From positions 6,820,001 through 6,884,000 of the forward strand of contig JBHGNT010000018.1 in NCBI GenBank assembly GCA_043228905.1: a DNA stretch of 64,000 bases, written 5' to 3'. The notes beneath the pieces are model-generated. The model was not told where the DNA came from. It was given only the letters and a program-made list of their open reading frames with translations, and made no database searches. This DNA is from Azolla caroliniana (Eukaryota; Plantae; Polypodiophyta). The position numbers were made by a program, and so were the translations under genes. This document shows, in pieces, positions 24,673-41,015 of the stretch (position 1 is its first letter; every line of letters starts with the position of its first letter).

Positions 24673-25175
24673 TGTACCCGGAGAGAGATCCGGATGCGGA
24701 GACATATTTGTGAATATGTTTGCCAAGAGCCCTTGAGGCTATATTTGTAAATAGCCCGAAAGTCATATGTGTATAAATATGACTTAGGGCAAACAGTTTT
24801 ACGTTGTTGCTCATTGTCTGTTTTTCCACTTAGAGGGAGCGAAGTGAGAGCAGCCGAGAGAGAGAGAGAGAGAAACGAAGAGGTCGACGCCTCTGTGTAA
24901 TACCGCCGCCTGTGGCGAGGACAGCGAGCTCAAGGTTGTTGCCTTGTAGCCTCGCCATTGTATATTCCAGTGTATAGTGGTAGTTGGAGTCGTGCACTCC
25001 CGTGGTTTTTCCCGTTTAGGGTTTTCCACGTTATACCCTGTGTATTCATCTCTCTGTGTCTTTGTTTTCATTTTTCTGCTGCATTGATCCGTGTTGTCTC
25101 GGTTGTGGCCGAGAGGCGAAAGAATTGATAGCGTCAAAGCTTTACAAAGTGGTATCAGAGCGACTGTTGCAGAAA

Positions 25176-28100
25176 ATGGAAGGCGGCGGCAGCGGGCAGC
25201 CGATGATGATGGTGCTGAATGCACAGAATTACGCCGACTGGAAGATCAAGATGGAGGATCTTCTGATTGTTCGGGACCTGTACGAACCGATTGACAGGTC
25301 GGAAATACCGAAAGGGGTACTTGAGTCGGAGTGGAAGCTCCTGAACCGGAAAGCCGTAGCAACGATCCGACAATACGTCGATGTAAGCGTCCTACAACAT
25401 GTGGCGAACGACACCAATGCATACGAGATGTGGAAGAAGCTGTCGGGCCTCTATGAGAGGAAGAATGCGTTGAACCGGACCTCCCTGATGAGGAAGATTG
25501 TGAATCTCAAGTACCGGGACGGCGAGAGTATGGTGGAACACGTAAGCACGTTCATGGGATTCGTGAACCAGCTTGCGGCGATCAAGTTCCCGTTGGAGGA
25601 TGCAATGCAAGCCATCATCCTGATGTGTACATTGCCGGACAGCTGGGAGAACTTGGTGGTGACTCTCAGCACCTCCTGCACAGAAGACAACTTGTCCCTA
25701 CAAACGGTAAAGACAAGTATTCTAAATGAAGAAGCGCGTCGGAGAGATAAAGAACCGGCCTCCGACTCGAAGGCGCTGCTTACCGAATCGGAACGGGGAA
25801 GACACTGGAACCGGAGTCCGCAAAGACGGGAGAAGTCGGGGACCCGGTCGCAGTCAAGAGGAAGACCCATTTGCTTCCACTGTGGGAAGCCGGGGCACTT
25901 CCGGAAAAATTGTCGGCATTACCGAAAGGACAACGGAGCCGACGACACCGATTCGAAGAAATCACCGGAGAGAAACGGTGCATACCGGGGAGCCACGGAC
26001 CGGAGAGGTCCGGATCGGCGAGGGCAGGACCGGAAAGGAACGACGGCACTCGCGGCAAGTGAAGAAGAGATAATGCTCATTACCGAAGAGAGGGAGCTGA
26101 ACCTTGCCGGCGTAGAGATGACCTGGGTGGTCGATTCCGGAGCGTCGTTCCACCTGACCCCGGAGAAGAAATACTTCTCATCCTACACAGCCGGTGAGCA
26201 CGGCTGTGTCCGGATGGGAAATGAAGGTACGTGCCGGATAGCCGGCATAGGAGACGTGTGGCTGATGACATCAACCGGATGCAAGATGCTGTTGAAGGAT
26301 GTGCGACACGTTCCGGAGGTCCGATTGAACCTGATCTCGGCCGGGAGGCTAGATGATGAAGGCTACACGGGTAGCATCCGGAACGGCGTAATGAAGTTCA
26401 GCAAGGGGAGCCTGATAGTGGCTCGGGCCCGGAAGGTCAACACTCTGTACCTGATGAATGCCCGGTTATGTCCGGAAGAGCTGAATGTAGCAGCCGACAC
26501 TGCCGGTGAGCTGTGGCACAAAAGACTGTGCCACATGAGTGAGAAGGGGATGAAGAGGCTTGCAGAAGACAACCTTATTCCAGTGAAGCATGTGCACCTG
26601 GAGAAGTGCACCGACTGCCTGGCCGGTAAGCAAAACCGGACCTCCTTCCACTCAAGGCCACCGACGAGACGTAGCGCACCCTTGGAGCTGGTGCACACTG
26701 ATGTGTGTCAGGTAGAAACGAAGTCACATGGCGGAGCCCAGTACTTCGTGACATTCATTGATGATCACAGCCGGAAGCTGTGGACGGCACCGTTGAAGAC
26801 AAAGGACCAAGTATTGTCCGTCTTCAAAGAACTCCACGCGAGAGTGGAAAGGGAATCCGGCAAGAAGCTGAAAGCGATACGAGCGGATAACGGAGGGGAA
26901 TACCGGGGGCAGTTCCAGGAGTACTGCCGCTCGAAGGGAATCCGGCTCGAGTTTACTGTGCCGAAGACGCCGGAACTGAACGGGCTGGCCGAGAGGATGA
27001 ATCGGACCATAATGGAGAGGGTCCGGAGTATGCTAGCGCATGCGAAACTACCCAAGGGATTTTGGGCTGAGGCAATGTCGACGGCGACGTATGTGATAAA
27101 TAGATCACCCTCAGTACCTTTGGACGGAGACACGCCGCAGAAAGTGTGGACCGGTAAGGAAGTGTCCTACCGGCATCTGAAGGTGTTCGGGTGTCTCACA
27201 TACGTGCATGTGGCAAAGGACCGGAGAGGAAAGTTAGATCCAAAGACCCGGCCATGCATATTCCTCGGTTACGGCGACGACGAGTTTGGCTACCGAGTAT
27301 GGGACCCGGTCGACAAGAAGATATTCAGGAGTCGAGATATCATTTTCATGGAGGACAAGACGCTCGCCGACTGGGAGTCGGAGAAGAAGATGAAGAGCTC
27401 CAAGTCGACCGGTGAGGATAAACTCTACGAGGAGCAGTCCCGACCGGCAAGGGACCGGTTAACACTCGAAGACCCGGCCGAAGACGGTGAAGAAACAGAA
27501 CCGGCTGAAGAGGATGAAAATGATACCGGAACCGGCCCCGATCCCGAAATGGATTCGGATGAAGAAGAAGAATCGGAAGAACCGGTTACCGAAGCTCCCG
27601 AACGGAGATATCCTCTAAGAGAGAGAAGGGCCCCCCGGAGATTTCCGGAACCAGAGCACGTGCTGCTAACCGACGAGGGGGAGCCGGAGAGCTTTGAAGA
27701 AGCAAAGCACGACACCCAGAGCCGCAGGTGGTTAAGTGCCATGCAGGACGAGATGGATTCCCTGCATGAGAACCACACATATGAACTTGTGGAGTTGCCG
27801 AAAGGAAAGCGGGCACTTCGAAACAAGTGGGTGTTCAAGCTGAAACCGGGAGATGCCGGAAACCCCCCGAGATACAAAGCCCGGATCGTGGTGAAGGGGT
27901 TTCAGCAGAAGAAGGGCGTCGACTTCGACGAGATATTTGCCCCGGTAGTGAAGATGACCTCCATCCGGACGGTGCTGAGCATAGCGGCAAGCATGGACCT
28001 CGAGGTAGAACAGATGGACGTGAAGACGGCATTCCTTCACGGTGACCTCGAAGAAGAGATCTACATGCAGCAACCGGAAGGATTCGAGAAGAAAGGGAAG

Positions 28101-29252
28101 GAGCACCTGGTATGCCGGTTGAAGAAGAGCCTTTACGGACTGAAGCAGGCTCCCCGGCAATGGTACCGGAAGTTCGACTCCTTCATGACCAACGAAGGGT
28201 ACCTCAAAACGCAGTCTGACCACTGCGTGTTTGTGAAGAAGTTCGAAGGAGGAGACTTTCTAATACTCCTCCTGTACGTGGACGACATGTTGATCGTCGG
28301 ACGGGACCAGGTAAAGATACGGATGCTGAAGAAGGCTCTTCACCGAACCTTCTCAATGAAGGACCTGGGTCCGGCGAGGCAAATACTAGGGATGCACATC
28401 ATCCGGGACCGGAGCAAGAAGCAGTTGTGGCTGTCACAAGAGAAGTACGTGACAAAGGTGCTTCAACGGTTCAACATGTCGGAAGCAAGACCGGTCGGAT
28501 CAACCCTCCCGGCAAACTGCAAGCTGTCCAGCAAGCAATGTCCCAAGACAAAAGCTGAAAAGGAGGATATGATGAAAGTACCGTATGCCTCAGCCGTCGG
28601 GAGCTTGATGTACGCCATGGTGTGTACGAGACCGGATATAGGATATGCAGTCGGAGTGGTGAGCCGGTACATGAGCAATCCCGGCAAAGAGCACTGGAAC
28701 GCGGTCAAGTGGATACTCCGATACCTGAAGGGCACAGCGAATGTGTGCCTCCGATTCGGCTCCGGTAAGCCCGAACTCGACGGCTTCACCGATTCGGATA
28801 TGTCGGCTGATGCAGATACCAGCCGGTCCACATCAGGGTATGTGATGACGTATGCAGGGGGAGCCGTTTCGTGGCAGTCGAGGCTGCAGAAGACGGTTGC
28901 GTTGTCAACCACGGAGGCGGAGTACATGGCAGCTGTTGAAGCCGGCAAGGAAGTAATATGGATGAAGGACTTCATTAGAGAGCTCGGTATCCGGCAGGAG
29001 GAGTACCGACTCTACTGCGACAGTCAGAGTGCAATCCACCTTGCGAAGAATGCGGCCTATCACTCCCGGACGAAGCACATCCAGCGAAGATATCACTGGA
29101 TCCGGGAAAGGATAGAAGACAAGGAGTTCGTGCTGACGAAGGTCCACACGGACGAGAACGGGTCGGATATGCTGACCAAGGTGCTCACACCCGACAAGCT
29201 GGAAGCATGCCGGAAGAGGATCGGATTGGAGAGACATCCCATGCCGAAGTGA
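25176..29252 (+). CDS. Copia Gag-Pol polyprotein (1358 aa): capsid, CCHC knuckle, aspartic protease, integrase, RT, RNase H
   Basis: First ATG after the PBS; motifs CFHCGKPGHFRKNC, VDSGAS, LWHKRLCH, HTDVC..ADNGGEY..NGLAERMN, SLYGLKQ, LYVDD, TEAEY, CDSQSA, KHI. Confidence 0.96.
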   Translation: MEGGGSGQPMMMVLNAQNYADWKIKMEDLLIVRDLYEPIDRSEIPKGVLESEWKLLNRKAVATIRQYVDVSVLQHVANDTNAYEMWKKLSGLYERKNALNRTSLMRKIVNLKYRDGESMVEHVSTFMGFVNQLAAIKFPLEDAMQAIILMCTLPDSWENLVVTLSTSCTEDNLSLQTVKTSILNEEARRRDKEPASDSKALLTESERGRHWNRSPQRREKSGTRSQSRGRPICFHCGKPGHFRKNCRHYRKDNGADDTDSKKSPERNGAYRGATDRRGPDRRGQDRKGTTALAASEEEIMLITEERELNLAGVEMTWVVDSGASFHLTPEKKYFSSYTAGEHGCVRMGNEGTCRIAGIGDVWLMTSTGCKMLLKDVRHVPEVRLNLISAGRLDDEGYTGSIRNGVMKFSKGSLIVARARKVNTLYLMNARLCPEELNVAADTAGELWHKRLCHMSEKGMKRLAEDNLIPVKHVHLEKCTDCLAGKQNRTSFHSRPPTRRSAPLELVHTDVCQVETKSHGGAQYFVTFIDDHSRKLWTAPLKTKDQVLSVFKELHARVERESGKKLKAIRADNGGEYRGQFQEYCRSKGIRLEFTVPKTPELNGLAERMNRTIMERVRSMLAHAKLPKGFWAEAMSTATYVINRSPSVPLDGDTPQKVWTGKEVSYRHLKVFGCLTYVHVAKDRRGKLDPKTRPCIFLGYGDDEFGYRVWDPVDKKIFRSRDIIFMEDKTLADWESEKKMKSSKSTGEDKLYEEQSRPARDRLTLEDPAEDGEETEPAEEDENDTGTGPDPEMDSDEEEESEEPVTEAPERRYPLRERRAPRRFPEPEHVLLTDEGEPESFEEAKHDTQSRRWLSAMQDEMDSLHENHTYELVELPKGKRALRNKWVFKLKPGDAGNPPRYKARIVVKGFQQKKGVDFDEIFAPVVKMTSIRTVLSIAASMDLEVEQMDVKTAFLHGDLEEEIYMQQPEGFEKKGKEHLVCRLKKSLYGLKQAPRQWYRKFDSFMTNEGYLKTQSDHCVFVKKFEGGDFLILLLYVDDMLIVGRDQVKIRMLKKALHRTFSMKDLGPARQILGMHIIRDRSKKQLWLSQEKYVTKVLQRFNMSEARPVGSTLPANCKLSSKQCPKTKAEKEDMMKVPYASAVGSLMYAMVCTRPDIGYAVGVVSRYMSNPGKEHWNAVKWILRYLKGTANVCLRFGSGKPELDGFTDSDMSADADTSRSTSGYVMTYAGGAVSWQSRLQKTVALSTTEAEYMAAVEAGKEVIWMKDFIRELGIRQEEYRLYCDSQSAIHLAKNAAYHSRTKHIQRRYHWIRERIEDKEFVLTKVHTDENGSDMLTKVLTPDKLEACRKRIGLERHPMPK

Positions 29253-33906: not shown

Positions 33907-34271
33907 TAGGAATCAGCAACACCTCGGCTCAAGCCCGAATCCAACCGTTAAAACCGTTTTTTAAAAGCTAAAAGGTTTAGCGGGTTGGTTTGGTTTAGGC
34001 TTGGGCTTCCTTAACAGGTTTGAGCTTAGGTTAGGATGGCTCAAACCGAACCGAACCGATTTGGGCCAAACCGGTTAAGGCTTAATCGGCTTGGCTAAAC
34101 CTAGGTAAATCGGTTTAGGCTTAACCGGTTCGGTCAAACCGGTAAGCCTTAACTGTTTTAGAAATAGATTCGGTTCAAGTTCAGAAACTCCCAAACCGGA
34201 AAAGGCTTAAGTGGTCCGGTTGGGTCTAGGCCAAACCAGATAAGCCGAACCTGGACCGTTGCCAATTCCTA
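33907..34271. mobile_element. AACCG-rich MITE-like element immediately upstream of the LSm10-like gene
   Basis: Imperfect TIR TAGGAATCAGCAAC / GTTGCCAATTCCTA and dense AACCG/CGGTT subterminal motifs; no clear TSD. Confidence 0.6.
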
Positions 34272-34313: not shown

Positions 34314-35227
34314 ATGGCTAATCAATATGGTCCTTCTTCTTCTTCTTCTTCTGGAAGAGCAGGGGATGGAGGAGGAGGCAGAGGCAGAGGCAGAGGCAGA
34401 GGAGGTAGGCCATGGGAGCGTAGCTTGGTCTGTGTCTTGAAGGCCCTGCGTGGGATGGAGGTGCTTGTCGAGCTCCAGAACGACGCCGTCATCAGGGGAT
34501 CTCTCGATGACTGCGACGATGTCATGAAGTCAGTATCATCTCCTCTCTCCCTCCTTGCCCAATCTTCTGCTTAATGAAATGAAATGCAATGGACTTGTGT
34601 GCAGCGTCACCATTACTGATGCGACCATGGAAGATGTGGAGGTAACATCTCCCTCCCTCTCTCTCCATTTGCCTCTTTTCTCATAGGCTATGTCTCTAGT
34701 GCTCCTAAAGTATTTAGGGTTTAGGAGTAGGCTTCTAGTGTTTGAGGTATTGGGTTAGGTTTTTTAGTGTTTCTAGGCGTTAGGGTTAGCCTTTAAAATT
34801 AGTTGTAGCATTTAAGATTTAAGGTTAAGGGTAATGTTGTTTGGTTTTTTTTTATTGGCTAATGGTTACGTCTAGGATCGGCCGATCCTTTCTTCTCTTT
34901 TAACATTCTCAGGGTAATATGAAGACACTACCTCTCATCTTCATTAGAGGCAGCAATGTCCGGTTTGTCCACATACCAGATGGCATCAATGTATCTGATG
35001 CAGTAGAAGAGATGGTAACTTACATTCATGCTTTTCTTTGGTGTGCATGTATATATACCTATACATATAAAGATACATACATACATACCCTTGTTGCTTT
35101 ATATTTTGTATGTTATTTTGCTCTTCTTCCCATCCCCTTGCAGAGACTTCTGCAAGATAAAGCTGCCTTTGCATATATGGGGAGAAAACCTGGTGAATCC
35201 TCCTCCGGCGGGTCAAGCATCAAATAG
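34314..35227 (+). CDS. LSM10: Sm-like protein, most similar to U7 snRNP-specific LSm10 (145 aa, 4 exons)
   Basis: Exons 34314-34528, 34605-34641, 34913-35014, 35144-35227; all introns GT-AG and frame-consistent. Spliced product: ..ERSLVCVLKALRGMEVLVELQNDAVIRGSLDDCDDVMNVTITDATMEDVEGNMKTLPLIFIRGSNVRFVHIPDGINV.. (Sm1 + Sm2). It resembles metazoan LSm10 as recalled (ENSLIILLQGLQG..DAFMN..NVRYVHIPDDVNI). The Sm fold is secure; the subfamily call is by recall. Confidence 0.75.
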
Positions 35228-35282
35228 TAGGATTTAAGATCTTTAGGGGCAATGTGATGCCTCATTATTTATACATGAGACA

Positions 35283-35424
35283 GGGAAAAATCATTTATAT
35301 ACATGACAGAAAAACTGAACTTGATGGAAAGGTTTATAGCGATGGAAATTGAGGGAAAATTCATTTATATACATGACGGAAAAACTGAAGCTGATGGAAA
35401 GATTTATGGCGATGGAATTTGAGG
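35283..35424 (+). repeat. ~70-bp direct repeat, two copies, in the 3' region of the LSm10-like gene
   Basis: GGGAAAA.TCATTTATATACATGAC.GAAAAACTGAA..TGATGGAAAG.TTTAT.GCGATGGAA.TTGA occurs twice. Confidence 0.85.
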
Positions 35425-35974: not shown

Positions 35975-36200
35975 ATATGATGATCAAACTGAAGTGTGTA
36001 ATATTATAGACTGTATCATGATGATTGGACTGAAGTGTATAACATAGAGATTGTTATGATGTTGATGATCAGGCTGAAATGTATAATATAAAGAATATAT
36101 GATGATGATCAGATTGAAGTGTATAATATATATATTATAGACCATATGATGATGATCTGGCTGAAGTATACAACAGATAGACTATACAATAATGATGATG
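35975..36200. repeat. Degenerate ~40-45-bp tandem repeat (5-6 units) just past the NYC1 stop
   Basis: Recurrent ATGATGAT..CTGAAGTGTATAA core at ~35989, 36030, 36075, 36114 and 36161. Confidence 0.8.
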
Positions 36201-36221
36201 GAATTACCCTGAATGACATCG

Positions 36222-39200
36222 CTATGTTCCTGAGATTCCACTTTCGAGCATTATGAATGCACAAATCACTGTAATGGAAAAGACTGAAACCAGTGTGGTA
36301 TCGGAGAATTGCTCTATAGCCGCAGATACAGGCAACCTTGCTCGGTCTTCAGCCCAATTACGCAATCTGTCTGCCTCTGCAGCATAAACAGCTCGACCCT
36401 ATAGATGCATTCACAACTTGGTCAACATTTGGGCATGCAACATACGTTCAGCATTTCAGCATCTAATAGAGAAGTATCCAACATATGTTTTATTACTTTC
36501 CCTATTCCCCCCCCAGTCAACCTTTGAAAGATAGAGAAAGGGAATGAGTTGAGAGTAAAACTGATCAAATATCACATATTTGGGCTTTGAAAATTGGGAA
36601 AGGGTTTGATCAATACATGGGGGATGAATTGGTTATATATTTAATCTCCGCATTTCAACATCCAATGGAATGTTTTAATAGTTTTATGTATTCCCTTCGG
36701 TCATCAAACTCTTAAAGTTGGACAAGGGAATGAATTGATCATATAATGGTACATCTAGTCTAGAAGAGGTTAAATAGGAATGATTTGCGAACACAATTTT
36801 TGCTCAAATAGCTCAAATGATTGAGACAAAGGCAATGAATTGGATATCAAATGCAAGACATTTTTAATAAAACTAGTGATGAATTGGTAACGAATTGTAT
36901 TCGTGATATTATTGCTCGTGAGTAGCAATCAAACTCAAACCGTTTAAAGAAATTGAAACTTAAACTGTACAAAACCAAATCGTTTAAACCGAACCGTTAC
37001 AAAAAAATCAAGCTCATACCTAATGGTTTTAGAGACTTTTAAACCATTAAAATCGTGGTTTTGCAGTTCGGTTTTGGTTTTCAAGTTCAGGTCAAAATTC
37101 AAAATTTCACAAAGGCTCTAACCGAACCGATAAAAACCCCAAACTGAACCTGAACCCGAACCGTTTACAAAAACCTGAACCGAATCAAACCGTTTAAATC
37201 ATTAAGCTGTGGTTTAGCGGTTCGGTTCGGTTCAGGTCGCCAATTAAATAATTATTACTCGTGAGGCAGTTCCCAAGGTCATTTGGAGATGAAATTCTAG
37301 AGGCTTCTCTTGGAAATACAGAAAATTTCCTATAATACATAATGTGGGCCTTTAAACCTATCTTAAACTATGTGCATGCACATACTTATTGGGAAAAGAT
37401 AATGTACACACATCAAAGAAAATATAACGGTAGAACAAAGAGCTTTTCATCGGTATCCATTTAGTCTTTCTTAAACCATGTATTCGTATTGATTTTTCCT
37501 AATTTAATGCAATCAGCAATGGCATGAAAGCAAACGAAGTCTACACACCTCTTCATCAAACCATCGACCGCGGCGTAGCCATGCTGTTACTAATGCTAGT
37601 AGTATTCGCGGGGGTGTGAGGAAGTTGATTGCTTTCCCTGTACCCTTGATGTCTCGCATCCTTGGGACTAAGGTTCTAGCCACAGTCTCCGGTAGCTCGC
37701 AGATTATGTTGAACATCTTTTTGTTTTGAAGTGATGCACCACTGCAGAAACAGCATGTAAAATTGACATTTCCACAGATTTATCAATATGTATAATTGAT
37801 ATTCCGGAGAGGATATTCCAGAGATAAATTGAGCGCCTTTGGGAAAATAACCAAAACTTGGGGAAAACAATGAAAAAACTTGGGTATCTCAGAGTTTTGT
37901 TTTTCACCAAGATTTTCCCAAATGATATGTAGTAAGCAAAGTTATGGGGGAATCCATGCTTTTACCTCAGGAGGAGATCGGTGAGAACCATTCCAGGGGA
38001 AGCTGTATGAATACCGACTCTTGATCCTTTGCATTCTTTTAATAGTGAACCATGTAGCTGGCGAAGACCACATTTTGTTGCCCCATACCTGCAAATAATC
38101 TGTCTCTGCTTGAGCAGCACTATACATGTTAACTTTCTGTTCTTACTTAGAATGGTTTTGACTGTGAAATGGATGGATATGATCAAATAAACTAAGTTTT
38201 GAGTGCAAACAGATGTTATCACAATTCATTTCGAGTGCAAATGGATATTATCACAATTCATTTTCTCATACACAGCAGTAAGAGGAGTGCTCGATCCTCC
38301 AGATCCAGCTCCATCCATGTTAAAAATATGCCCACCCTTCCTTTGCAACTTCATCACCCGGATCGCTTCTCGAGTACAAATCAATGACCCGATCATATTG
38401 GCAGAAACAATCTGTAGTGGGAAGGTTGAATTCCATATTCATGTATAATAATGTGTTTTCATTATAGCCACAAAGATTTCGATCTCAAGAAAACTCACCT
38501 CCTGAATGTCATCATCAGAGAATTGAGTAAGTGGTCTAAACCCTTTGTTGATACCTGCATTATTGATCTGTCCATATGATATATCAACATCATGATATTA
38601 AGGGTACAGGAATGTAATTTGAACATAAAATATCATAATATGATATGTTTGTGAGCATTGTGAAGACCTACCCATAAATCAATTGATCCAAGTTCACTCC
38701 CAGCAAATTCTGCCAATGCCTTTACATCATTGACTTTAGACACATCACATGCAATTCCAATAACTCTGGCCCCATCTTTCCTATCCTTGAGTGATAGAGA
38801 GTCATGAACCATTGAAAATGGGTGGTATAATCTGGATGCCAACTCAACTTGAAGCTCCTCGACCGTTTCAGCAACAGATTCAGGACTGAACCAAAAGTAG
38901 CTAGATATATTGACATTGAATTTCTACAACACTTTGAAAAGAAAAATGTGTATATTATATATATCTCCACGGCACTGAAAGGTGATGCATACCTCCGTGA
39001 TGCAATTACCACCCGATCTCCAGCAAGGAGGAATTCCCTTGCCAAAGCCTTCCCTAGACCACGCGTGCTGTCATGTCACCGAATATAGTTAATGAGTTCA
39101 GTTAAAGCTGCATTGGAAAACTATAATTGTGCAAATTTTCAAGATTTGGATGGCTTTTGATAACCATAATGGTATATTGGTAGTTATCCCCAAATTATGA

Positions 39201-40918
39201 AACAAAAATGTCACTTGATGGAATTCAATCGGCTTACCTTCCAGTAATTATAACATTCCGAGGTCCCGATCGAAACCGCTTTTGCATAACTTTCTCAGCA
39301 CCGATCATTGATCCTACAATGATTCCAGCAAGCCAGCTGAGCCAGATTACTGTCTCTAGTTCTGAATCTCCTCCTTCATTGACCAGAATTGATGAAAACA
39401 GAAACACATAAGACTTAGGCAGACAGACATTGCTTCAGAACAACCTTCAGAACTAGAACTACAAACTTCACAAGTAGAAATCATATGAATTTGCAAACAC
39501 CATGATGGACACAATTCAGCAGAGCGCCCCCCTACATTTTTGTTATTTCACCAAATGCCCCTGGTCAAACCCTGGAAGCGTGAAAAAGATGGATGATTCG
39601 AGCAAATAATTGCTCAAATAGCATGTAGAAGTGAGAAAAATGGGTATCAATTGACCATATGATTGCTCGAATGCCACATGTTAACTTCTCGAGCGGTGGT
39701 TGACCAAGGTTATGTGGGAAAGTAACAAAAAGTTAGGGGGAATTGCAATGAGATAAAGAAAATCTCAGAGGTAAAGTTTCATGGTTTTCTCTCCAGATAT
39801 AAATTATTCATATATGTCTTTGCATTGAGCATACCTGCTAGTTCATAACCTGTGGCAAGAACAGTTCCAGTTGCCATCATGGTGAACAAGAATTTTCCTA
39901 AATGACTAGTGAACTGGTAAAGAGACAATCAGAGGAAGAAAAATATTAGCTTTCATGTCTGCAGATGGCCAAAAGACTTTCGCTATATAAGCATCATACA
40001 ACTCTATGTCAGCTACTATGGATTTATTTCATGTATGAAACATCTTTTTAAATTCCTCCATTACTTGTACCTAGAAATCATGTTTGAAGATCAACGTGAA
40101 CAATGATATCTACAGTTGCTTCTCATTATTTGTGACACAAGAAAGTCACCATTTTGAACACAGGAAAGACCTGATATTTTACAGATTTAATATTATGAAC
40201 TTACTGTAAAGAAATCAGCCTCAGCCTGCCTTAATCTGCGGCGGATCTTCCTTCTATGGTAACTAGGTGGCCATGATCCTGTCAACATCTTCACGAAGCT
40301 CCACGAAGTTCTTAAATCATCTGCTTCTGATCGCTGGAGCTTCTTGTTCTTCTTTTTCTTTCTCTCGTTCCCGAGCGATAAGTCCTTCAGATTGGATCCG
40401 TTCACTACCCTAATGAGAGGGCGAACTGTGTTGATGAAGCCATACTGAAACCAAGTCAACTTCCTTCCATCTCCGTCTATTAAATCAGTGCAGTTATTCA
40501 ATGATTCAAAACTACCAGAAACATCTGGTAATTCTGTGTCTATTTGAAGATCCTTGCTGTCGCCATATCTGTTGGCCACGAAACCACTTCCATCTTGGGA
40601 AGAAGGGCTATCCTTCTTCTCCGCTTGCGTGGACTCCTCACGGATCAGAGAGTACGCGGAATCGTTCTTGCTGGTAGCAGAGGCAGGGATTCTTATCGAA
40701 CTGCGAGGGTCCTTGGAGGAAGGATGGGGAAAGACAAAGCAGAAGATGGAGGAGGGAGGAGGGCCATGGAGGGGAGGGTTAAGCTTGGATCGGAGTGGGA
40801 ATGGGAGCTCGGAAGCACAATTGTGGCGAGGCAGGGCGGCGGCGGCGGTATGTGTGGGGATCATGATGGCTCTGTAAGACAGTGGAGGAGGAGGATTTGA
40901 GGTATGCAGAGCCGCCAT
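36222..40918 (-). CDS. NYC1: Chlorophyll(ide) b reductase NON-YELLOW COLORING 1 (chloroplast SDR), ~639 aa, 10 exons
   Basis: Exons (minus): 40918-40205, 39913-39835, 39373-39238, 39067-38993, 38885-38672, 38567-38499, 38411-38272, 38088-37966, 37741-37549, 36398-36222; GT-AG, phases consistent. SDR motifs TGSTRGLG, INNAG, YGATK. NYC1-specific N-terminal TM segments (LAGGDS..WLSWLAGIIVG) and C-terminus (MFNIICELPETVA..RRGRWFD..YAAEADRLRNWAE), which NOL lacks. Transit-peptide-like N-terminus. Confidence 0.95.
36930..37245. mobile_element. AACCG-rich MITE-like remnant in NYC1 intron 9
   Basis: Dense AAACCG/CGGTT(C) motifs ending GGTCGCCAATT, similar to the right end of the 33907-34271 element. 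Confidence 0.5.
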
Positions 40919-41015
40919 GGAAGCTTGAAAGGAAAGGAAAGGAAAGGAAAGGAAAGAAAGAAAGAAAGAGAAGGAAGGAGACAGGTTCATCAGTTTTCTG
41001 GTTGCGTGTGGATAG

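What the first reader, a model, noticed from the sequence alone, without database searches (positions are those of the whole stretch)
34314..35227. Intact LSm10-like gene in a land plant: a possible U7-type or repurposed Sm ring
Seen: a cleanly spliced 145-aa Sm-fold gene. Its helix (ERSLVCVLKALRG), D..MN and NVRFVHIPDGINV motifs fit LSm10 better than SmD1 or LSm2, by recall. Established: LSm10/LSm11 replace SmD1/SmD2 in the U7 snRNP, which cleaves non-polyadenylated histone mRNA 3' ends, whereas angiosperm histone mRNAs are polyadenylated and lack this machinery. Inference: this lineage keeps either a U7/stem-loop histone pathway or an LSm10-containing ring on some other small RNA.
Basis: partly seen in the sequence, partly recalled or inferred. 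Interest (0 to 1): 0.8.

Follow-up and report, generated by a model that had tools for sequence, protein, structure and literature searches.

The report
Fern keeps animal-type histone-processing gene LSm10
This intact, spliced gene from what is likely a fern matches LSm10, a subunit of the particle that cuts histone messenger RNAs in animals, and likely does the same job here; LSm10 and tail-less histone messages are already on record for non-flowering land plants, so it is mostly a new member of a known system, with the plant guide RNA still unfound.

Summary
There are four exons, three GT-AG introns and 145 aa, and all three junctions appear in contigs of public runs of close relatives. The protein is an LSm10 orthologue: human LSm10 scores 71 bits against a plant profile, versus 50.5 or less for SmD3, LSm2, LSm4 and SmD1. 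It sits in a fern clade within moss, fern and gymnosperm orthologues.

The novelty premise largely fails. RefSeq already names the Physcomitrium orthologue LSm10. An October 2026 preprint reports LSM10 and LSM11 in land plants. Chen et al. 2026 show poly(A)-less stem-loop histone mRNAs and SLBP in moss, fern and a cycad. Earlier notes of this scan found histone stem-loops elsewhere in this genome.

The likely job is U7-type histone 3' cleavage. This is inferred: no genome was available, so LSm11 and U7 RNA were not tested.

What is left over: (1) no plant U7 RNA was found in the texts I read; (2) unnamed plant-type H4 loci share a candidate downstream element about 15 nt after the hairpin, which predicts the guide; (3) this lineage alone adds an N-terminal RG cluster.

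The parts
34314..34528 (+). Exon 1: start codon, N-terminal extension, first helix and Sm1 motif
   Evidence: Pfam LSM E 4e-4, below the curated cut-off on its own; donor seen as a joint
34368..34409 (+). Gly/Arg (RG) cluster in the N-terminal extension, encoded by GGA and GAGGCA repeats; seen only in this lineage
   Evidence: 3-4 GRG in the window protein, P0001 and P0002; at most 1 in the other 74 of 77 rows that matched the helix pattern
34529..34604 (+). Intron 1, 76 nt, GT-AG, phase 2; moss genes appear to break at the same place
   Evidence: moss read-through ORFs P0062, P0066 and P0069 diverge from the family at this point
34605..34641 (+). Exon 2 (37 nt)
34642..34912 (+). Intron 2, 271 nt, GT-AG, phase 0
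34913..35014 (+). Exon 3: Sm2 motif with RFVHIP and the start of the C-terminal helix
   Evidence: best PDB match human LSm10, E 2.2e-5; next SmD3, E 0.019
35015..35143 (+). Intron 3, 129 nt, GT-AG, phase 0
35144..35227 (+). Exon 4: end of the C-terminal helix, low-complexity tail and stop; the land-plant GGKG segment reads GRKP here

Best explanation
The gene is an intact, spliced LSm10 gene of what is likely a fern, and its protein likely pairs with an LSm11 partner in a U7-type ring that guides cutting of histone pre-mRNAs just after their 3' hairpin. Shown: gene structure; spliced contigs in relatives; closest similarity to LSm10 among solved Sm/LSm chains; orthologues from streptophyte algae to gymnosperms whose tree broadly follows the plant groups. 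From the literature: ferns, a moss and a cycad make poly(A)-less, stem-loop histone mRNAs and encode SLBP. In humans LSm10 and LSm11 replace SmD1 and SmD2, and LSm10 wedges open the nuclease CPSF73. Inferred: an LSm11 and a U7-like RNA exist in this genome, the ring assembles, the RNA pairs with an element about 15 nt past the hairpin, and CPSF73 cuts. Angiosperms would have lost LSm10 together with SLBP.
For: PDB by profile: LSm10 71 bits; SmD3 50.5; LSm2 49.8; LSm4 48.0; SmD1 37.8. Full-length relative P0005: LSm10 2e-15 versus LSm4 2e-10. Atlas ranks 1 and 3 are LSm10. Ten of the 12 animal rows with an organism name are called LSm10 by their source, and no listed row is named SmD1, SmD3, LSm2 or LSm4. 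Tree: fern clade 99/97, land plants 98/97, then Coleochaete 95/94. A model of relative P0030 (74% identical) has the Sm fold plus helix 86-104, and human LSm10 chains take ranks 1, 2, 4 and 5. Coding differences in relatives are mostly silent. Chen et al.: poly(A)-less histone mRNA and SLBP in Physcomitrium, Adiantum and Cycas debaoensis, absent in Selaginella and angiosperms. Adiantum, Ceratopteris and Physcomitrium each have both LSm10 and SLBP. The candidate downstream element has information content 11.5 versus 7.5-7.9 in three control windows and at most 8.75 in 30 shuffles.
Against: No genome was held, so LSm11, SLBP, U7 RNA and histone genes of this organism were not examined; Rfam found no U7 in the window. 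The tree holds no rival paralogue. PDB has a single LSm10 sequence. Exon 1 alone ranks LSm4 and LSm2 above LSm10. Atlas rank 2 is SmD3 at the same rounded score, 0.93. S. pombe LSm4 is rank 3 in the fold search. The homologue search is word-seeded and so biased towards RFVHIP-bearing proteins. The GGKG segment, aligned to the human LSm10 region that contacts substrate RNA, is in 13 of 16 land-plant rows but not in the window protein or Ceratopteris, and is in 0 of 62 other rows. The window's end branch (0.38) is the longest among the fern rows. Chen et al. never mention LSm10, LSm11 or U7 (0 hits), so U7 dependence is unshown in any plant. In leave-one-out the downstream element ranked first at +14 to +19 in 6 of 9 groups only; those loci are related paralogues of undetermined organisms, not this fern.
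Confidence: 0.72

Rival explanations
1. It is true LSm10, but plant stem-loop histone ends are made without a U7 RNA (for example cleavage elsewhere, then trimming back to the SLBP-protected hairpin), and LSm10 has a minor or fading role.
For: No plant U7 RNA is reported in the texts read. The preprint's U7 covariance search covered 3,424 plant genomes, and the passages I saw name a candidate only for a fungus. The preprint argues that pathway parts decouple. The GGKG segment is eroded in this lineage.
Against: The protein is 53-74% identical across mosses, ferns and gymnosperms with an intact frame, and changes among relatives are mostly silent. A position-fixed downstream element is what an RNA guide predicts. 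An animal-trained U7 model is expected to miss a divergent RNA of about 60 nt (inference).
Confidence: 0.12
2. LSm10 has been repurposed into a ring on some other small RNA.
For: The lineage-specific RG extension is new. In human cells LSm10 and LSm3 stabilise each other (PMC11339298, passage).
Against: Its named range matches the published SLBP and stem-loop range. No positive evidence for another RNA was found.
Confidence: 0.09
3. It is a divergent SmD1, SmD3, LSm2 or LSm4 paralogue that only resembles LSm10.
For: Exon 1 alone prefers LSm4 and LSm2. No tree with these paralogues could be built.
Against: The margin is 20.5 bits by profile. The His in RFVHIP is shared with human LSm10 and absent from the SmD3, LSm2 and LSm4 chains displayed. 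The match covers both terminal extensions, profile positions 6-103. RefSeq names the moss orthologue LSm10.
Confidence: 0.04
4. It is a pseudogene or a contaminant sequence.
For: A repeat-like AACCGG-rich stretch ends only some 40-60 nt before the ATG. No run is on record as RNA.
Against: The frame is open with canonical splice sites. One spliced contig has 1 difference in 370 nt (X1). The protein nests among ferns.
Confidence: 0.03

Closest known systems
Physcomitrium patens XP_024388930.1, 'U7 snRNA-associated Sm-like protein LSm10 isoform X2'; Ceratopteris KAH7387071.1; Adiantum capillus-veneris KAI5066815.1 (both hypothetical proteins)
   Same: 64%, 73% and 72% identity to the spliced protein; same clade; same helix and RFVHIP motifs.
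   Different: The window protein has 36 residues before the first helix versus 11, with a Ser run and an RG cluster, and lacks the GGKG stretch found in most land plants.
Human LSm10 of the U7 snRNP (PDB 6V4X chain C; also 9N96, 9NB1, 9NH5)
   Same: Best solved match by sequence and by fold, including the N- and C-terminal helices outside the Sm core.
   Different: About 31-32% identical to the modelled relative. Ring partners, RNA and CPSF73 contact are shown only for the human protein. In human U7 the RG cluster that enters PRMT5 is on LSm11 (PMC10578488, passages); here one is on LSm10.
Land-plant stem-loop/SLBP histone mRNA system (Chen et al. 2026, PMC13130582)
   Same: Same named range: moss, fern and gymnosperms positive; Selaginella and angiosperms negative for SLBP there and not seen among named LSm10 rows here.
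   Different: That paper does not address the cleavage machinery: LSm10, LSm11 and U7 have 0 occurrences in its text, and LSm10, LSm11 and snRNP have 0 in the 2 held supplements.
Survey of histone 3' processing factors (Zhao, Bond, Ni Leathlobhair, bioRxiv 10.64898/2026.10.14.759114)
   Same: States that LSM10 and LSM11 homologues were detected in green algae and land plants.
   Different: The main text has 0 occurrences of 'fern' and defines downstream elements by AAA/AAGA, which would not describe the candidate element seen here. Its figures and supplements were not visible and may list ferns or plant U7 hits.

Membership tests
LSm10 | Sm fold with Sm1 and Sm2 motifs | tested here: met
   Pfam LSM on single exons, below cut-off, and on full-length relatives at 59-64 bits; model of P0030 at pLDDT 84
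LSm10 | Closer to LSm10 than to SmD1, SmD3, LSm2 or LSm4 | tested here: met
   71 versus at most 50.5 bits. Exon 1 alone does not discriminate
LSm10 | RF(V)H(I)P at the end of Sm2 followed by a long C-terminal helix | tested here: met
   RFVHIP at residue 101; motif in 78 of 78 aligned rows, which is circular because the search is word-seeded; helix 86-104 in the relative's model
LSm10 | Clade with animal LSm10 to the exclusion of other Sm/LSm subfamilies | tested here: inconclusive
   The tree of 37 rows contains only LSm10-like proteins; the search for LSm2 outgroups returned only plant LSm10 fragments
LSm10 | C-terminal segment that contacts substrate RNA in human U7 (residues 108-114) | tested here: inconclusive
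   Human GGKG aligns with plant GGKG; present in 13 of 16 land-plant rows, 0 of 62 other rows, and GRKP in the window protein
U7 snRNP | LSm11 partner encoded in the same genome | not testable with these tools
   No genome held and no LSm11 query among stored proteins; the preprint reports LSM11 in land plants without naming ferns
U7 snRNP | U7 snRNA with antisense 5' end, special Sm site and 3' hairpin | not testable with these tools
   None in the window by Rfam; a predicted-guide pattern had no match in the window or 120 short loci, far too little sequence to matter
U7 snRNP | Substrates: histone genes with 3' stem-loop, and SLBP | not tested
   No histone gene or GG..CC hairpin in the window. 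Published for Adiantum; unchecked notes report hairpins on H3 and H4 in this genome
U7 snRNP | Histone downstream element at a fixed distance from the hairpin | tested here: inconclusive
   Candidate in 8 of 9 plant-type H4 groups at up to 2 mismatches versus 2 of 38 other groups; motif derived from the same 9; leave-one-out 6 of 9; organism undetermined
U7 snRNP | Ring assembly and CPSF73-dependent cleavage | not testable with these tools
   Needs biochemistry or genetics
SmD1 / SmD3 / LSm2 / LSm4 | Best similarity to that subfamily | tested here: not met
   All score at least 20.5 bits below LSm10

The most novel reading that the evidence does not exclude
Mosses, ferns and gymnosperms still run a complete U7 snRNP with an undiscovered, divergent guide RNA. 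Its 5' end would pair with a downstream element that is not purine-rich (roughly RWTTGWVGCTY, starting 14-16 nt after the hairpin in plant-type H4 loci). The whole module was lost together with SLBP in flowering plants. In this fern lineage LSm10 has also gained the kind of RG cluster that human U7 carries on LSm11 for PRMT5.
Probability: 0.4. Interest if true: 0.6.

Novelty: new member of a known kind. Interest (0 to 1): 0.3.

Why it matters
How plant poly(A)-less histone mRNAs get their 3' end is open: the 2026 paper that found them did not examine the cutting machinery. LSm10 is the handle for it. It is present in two tractable models (Physcomitrium and Ceratopteris), so a knockout and a pull-down would show whether U7-guided cleavage survives in land plants and would deliver the plant U7 RNA. 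The candidate downstream element gives a concrete antisense sequence to search for. The gene's mere presence is not news.

Tried and rejected
Whole genome: none held, so no search for LSm11, SLBP, U7 or histone genes in this organism.

Rfam on the window: two chance-level hits, no U7. No histone-type hairpin in the window.

Run search: no RNA holder listed on record.

Exon 1 core as a word-seeded query gave only 2 hits among 4 candidates. Exon 3 against the 50% representatives gave 13 hits, of which 4 (P0003, P0006, P0013, P0015) are repeat-protein artefacts and were dropped.

An attempt to pull LSm2 outgroups returned only plant LSm10 fragments, so no full-family tree exists.

The records behind the H4 loci are not held, so their surroundings and organism were not examined. 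Whether fern histone transcripts carry the candidate downstream element remains open. A predicted U7 pattern matched nothing in the window or the 120 loci.

No complex prediction was run: no LSm11 or CPSF73 sequence was among the session's proteins.

The Atlas did not name the neighbouring gene's exon.

Davila Lopez and Samuelsson 2008 is not held and is known to me only through citations; it may already list plant LSm10.

Rejected: an upstream in-frame start. A stop lies 29 codons upstream with no Met between.

Full report
Observation. The finding's coordinates hold a four-exon gene on the + strand: 34314-34528, 34605-34641, 34913-35014 and 35144-35227. The introns are GT-AG, of 76, 271 and 129 nt, and the frame is 145 codons. 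No earlier in-frame start is possible. Four of 15 listed public runs were laid on the region. All three introns appear as joints, each in at least two runs, and one spliced contig differs from the window by 1 letter in 370. The runs are only guessed to be RNA, and one also holds intron-containing contigs. So expression is shown as spliced forms in close relatives, not measured. Six of the seven coding differences displayed are silent (38 rows of that table were not shown).

Identity. Exon 3 alone hits human LSm10 at E 2.2e-5, with SmD3 next at 0.019. Exon 1 alone is ambiguous and ranks LSm4 and LSm2 first. A full-length relative gives LSm10 2e-15 versus LSm4 2e-10. A profile of 18 plant and algal rows gives LSm10 71 bits, SmD3 50.5, LSm2 49.8, LSm4 48.0 and SmD1 37.8. 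In the other direction, a profile of 10 source-named animal LSm10 proteins scores the spliced protein at 77.4 bits, against 1.7 for the best of 200 shuffles. The Atlas lists LSm10 clusters at ranks 1 and 3 and SmD3 at rank 2, all 0.93. A model of relative P0030, built with animal LSm10 rows in its alignment, has the Sm fold and a long C-terminal helix. It finds human LSm10 chains at ranks 1, 2, 4 and 5, with S. pombe LSm4 at rank 3, so fold alone separates them weakly. I put LSm10 orthology at about 0.95.

Range and lineage. A profile search found 183 proteins among 3,857 candidates and listed 120. Named plant relatives are Ceratopteris, two Adiantum species, Physcomitrium, Ceratodon, Sphagnum, Picea, Cryptomeria, Welwitschia, Coleochaete and a row tagged Chlat1, which I read as Chlorokybus from recall. 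Ten of 12 animal rows with an organism name are called LSm10. No named row is an angiosperm, Selaginella, Marchantia or a hornwort. Only 22 of the 120 rows carry an organism name in that call, 63 hits were not listed, and the search is word-seeded, so absence is suggestive only. In a tree of 37 chosen rows, the window protein lies in a clade with Ceratopteris and Adiantum (99/97) inside land plants (98/97), with Coleochaete next. The organism is therefore likely a fern, and inheritance looks vertical.

What is already known. RefSeq names the Physcomitrium orthologue XP_024388930.1 as LSm10. The preprint 10.64898/2026.10.14.759114 states that LSM10 and LSM11 were detected in green algae and land plants. 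Of it I read parts 1-3 of 10, section 27, the first part of the Discussion and term passages; figures and supplements were not visible. Chen et al. 2026 (PMC13130582) show poly(A)-less stem-loop histone mRNAs and SLBP in Physcomitrium, Adiantum and Cycas debaoensis, and their absence in Selaginella and angiosperms. Of it I read the abstract, section 6, passages, one part of supplement 2 and term searches of the 2 held supplements. It does not mention LSm10, LSm11 or U7. Three unchecked notes of this scan report histone hairpins elsewhere in this genome; they led me to that paper, which my own search also listed. Nine literature searches turned up no functional study of a plant LSm10 and no plant U7 RNA or downstream element. 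The library lacks most subscription papers and the 2008 RNA paper.

Mechanism. In humans LSm10 and LSm11 replace SmD1 and SmD2 on U7 RNA (PMC7026596, passages). LSm10 wedges CPSF73 open (PMC7614891 and PMC9570436, passages), and its residues 108-114 contact substrate RNA (PMC12774660, passages). Given a conserved LSm10 in the same named lineages that keep SLBP and stem-loop histone messages, the simplest reading is that this protein does the same job. Each step past the gene itself is inferred. One point against: a GGKG stretch aligning with human 108-111 is in 13 of 16 land-plant rows but not in this protein or Ceratopteris, and in 0 of 62 other rows. It may be convergent or dispensable.

Indirect test of a guide RNA. 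Of these, 37 have the land-plant-type H4 C-terminal half (the diagnostic residues are recalled), 57 have other types and 26 could not be classed. One plant-type locus was dropped for a short flank. The remaining 36 form 9 groups whose third codon positions are 36-67% identical where compared. They share an 11-nt motif starting at +14 to +16 after the hairpin (one at +19). Its information content is 11.5, versus 7.5-7.9 in three windows further downstream and at most 8.75 in 30 shuffles; the shuffles had fewer search restarts. It matches 8 of 9 groups at that position versus 2 of 38 groups of other H4 types, but the pattern was derived from those 9. In leave-one-out it is the top site within 150 nt in 6 of 9. 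The position suits a U7-pairing element, but the organisms are undetermined, the loci are related, and nothing ties them to this fern. It is a lead, not a result.

Lineage-specific feature. The window protein and two unnamed close relatives have 33-36 residues before the first helix, with a Ser run and 3-4 GRG motifs; typical land-plant rows have 11-13 residues and no GRG. Human LSm11 has a similar cluster that enters the PRMT5 active site (PMC10578488, passages). Here the cluster is encoded by microsatellites and varies in length between relatives, so neutral expansion is at least as likely as function.

Verdict. A real LSm10 gene in a likely fern, a new member of a family already recorded in land plants, most likely serving U7-type histone processing. 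Interest 0.3. The open and testable part is the missing plant U7 RNA.

Noticed in passing
window about 36222-40920, minus strand: Multi-exon short-chain dehydrogenase gene tail-to-tail with LSm10, stop at 36224-36222. It resembles chlorophyll b reductase NYC1 by recall only; Pfam gives a weak adh_short match and the Atlas gave no name.
   Followed up: partly
window 35206 and 36210-36236: In run X2 one contig runs from LSm10 exon 4 at 35206 straight into sequence matching 36210-36236 at 25 of 27 letters, starting with an in-frame stop. In that relative the two genes' stops would lie about 10 nt apart with overlapping 3' ends, versus about 1 kb here. Single contig.
   Followed up: no
window about 33950-34270 and about 36920-37240: AACCGG-rich, partly palindromic repeat, high depth in the runs, ending some 40-60 nt before the LSm10 ATG; a related copy lies in an intron of the neighbour. 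It may supply or displace the promoter.
   Followed up: partly
window 35282-35421 and 35977-36181: A 70-nt tandem duplication in the LSm10 3' region and an array of 4-5 copies of a 40-47-nt unit near the neighbour's 3' end.
   Followed up: no
window 25020-29252, plus: A 1,410-aa open copia-type polyprotein (label recalled from its motifs) amid many broken LTR elements; the two host genes form a small island.
   Followed up: no
L002, L008, L018, L025, L037, L050, L055, L072, L075, after the hairpin: Candidate histone downstream element in land-plant-type H4 loci.
   Followed up: partly
L003, L016, L047, L078, L083, L085, L090, L105, L013, after the hairpin: A separate H4 group shares CACAAAGAAACA shortly after the hairpin, a purine-rich element of the classic kind.
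   Followed up: no
L009, L062, L073, L076, L077, L079, L093: Strongly divergent H4 proteins (ending KKAGRTLYGFGG or similar) carry the same GGTGTT hairpin 18-32 nt after the stop.
   Followed up: no
P0004 (Adiantum nelumboides MCO5588875.1): Gene model joins an unrelated, transposase-like N-terminal part (label recalled) to the second half of LSm10; probably a mis-prediction.
   Followed up: no
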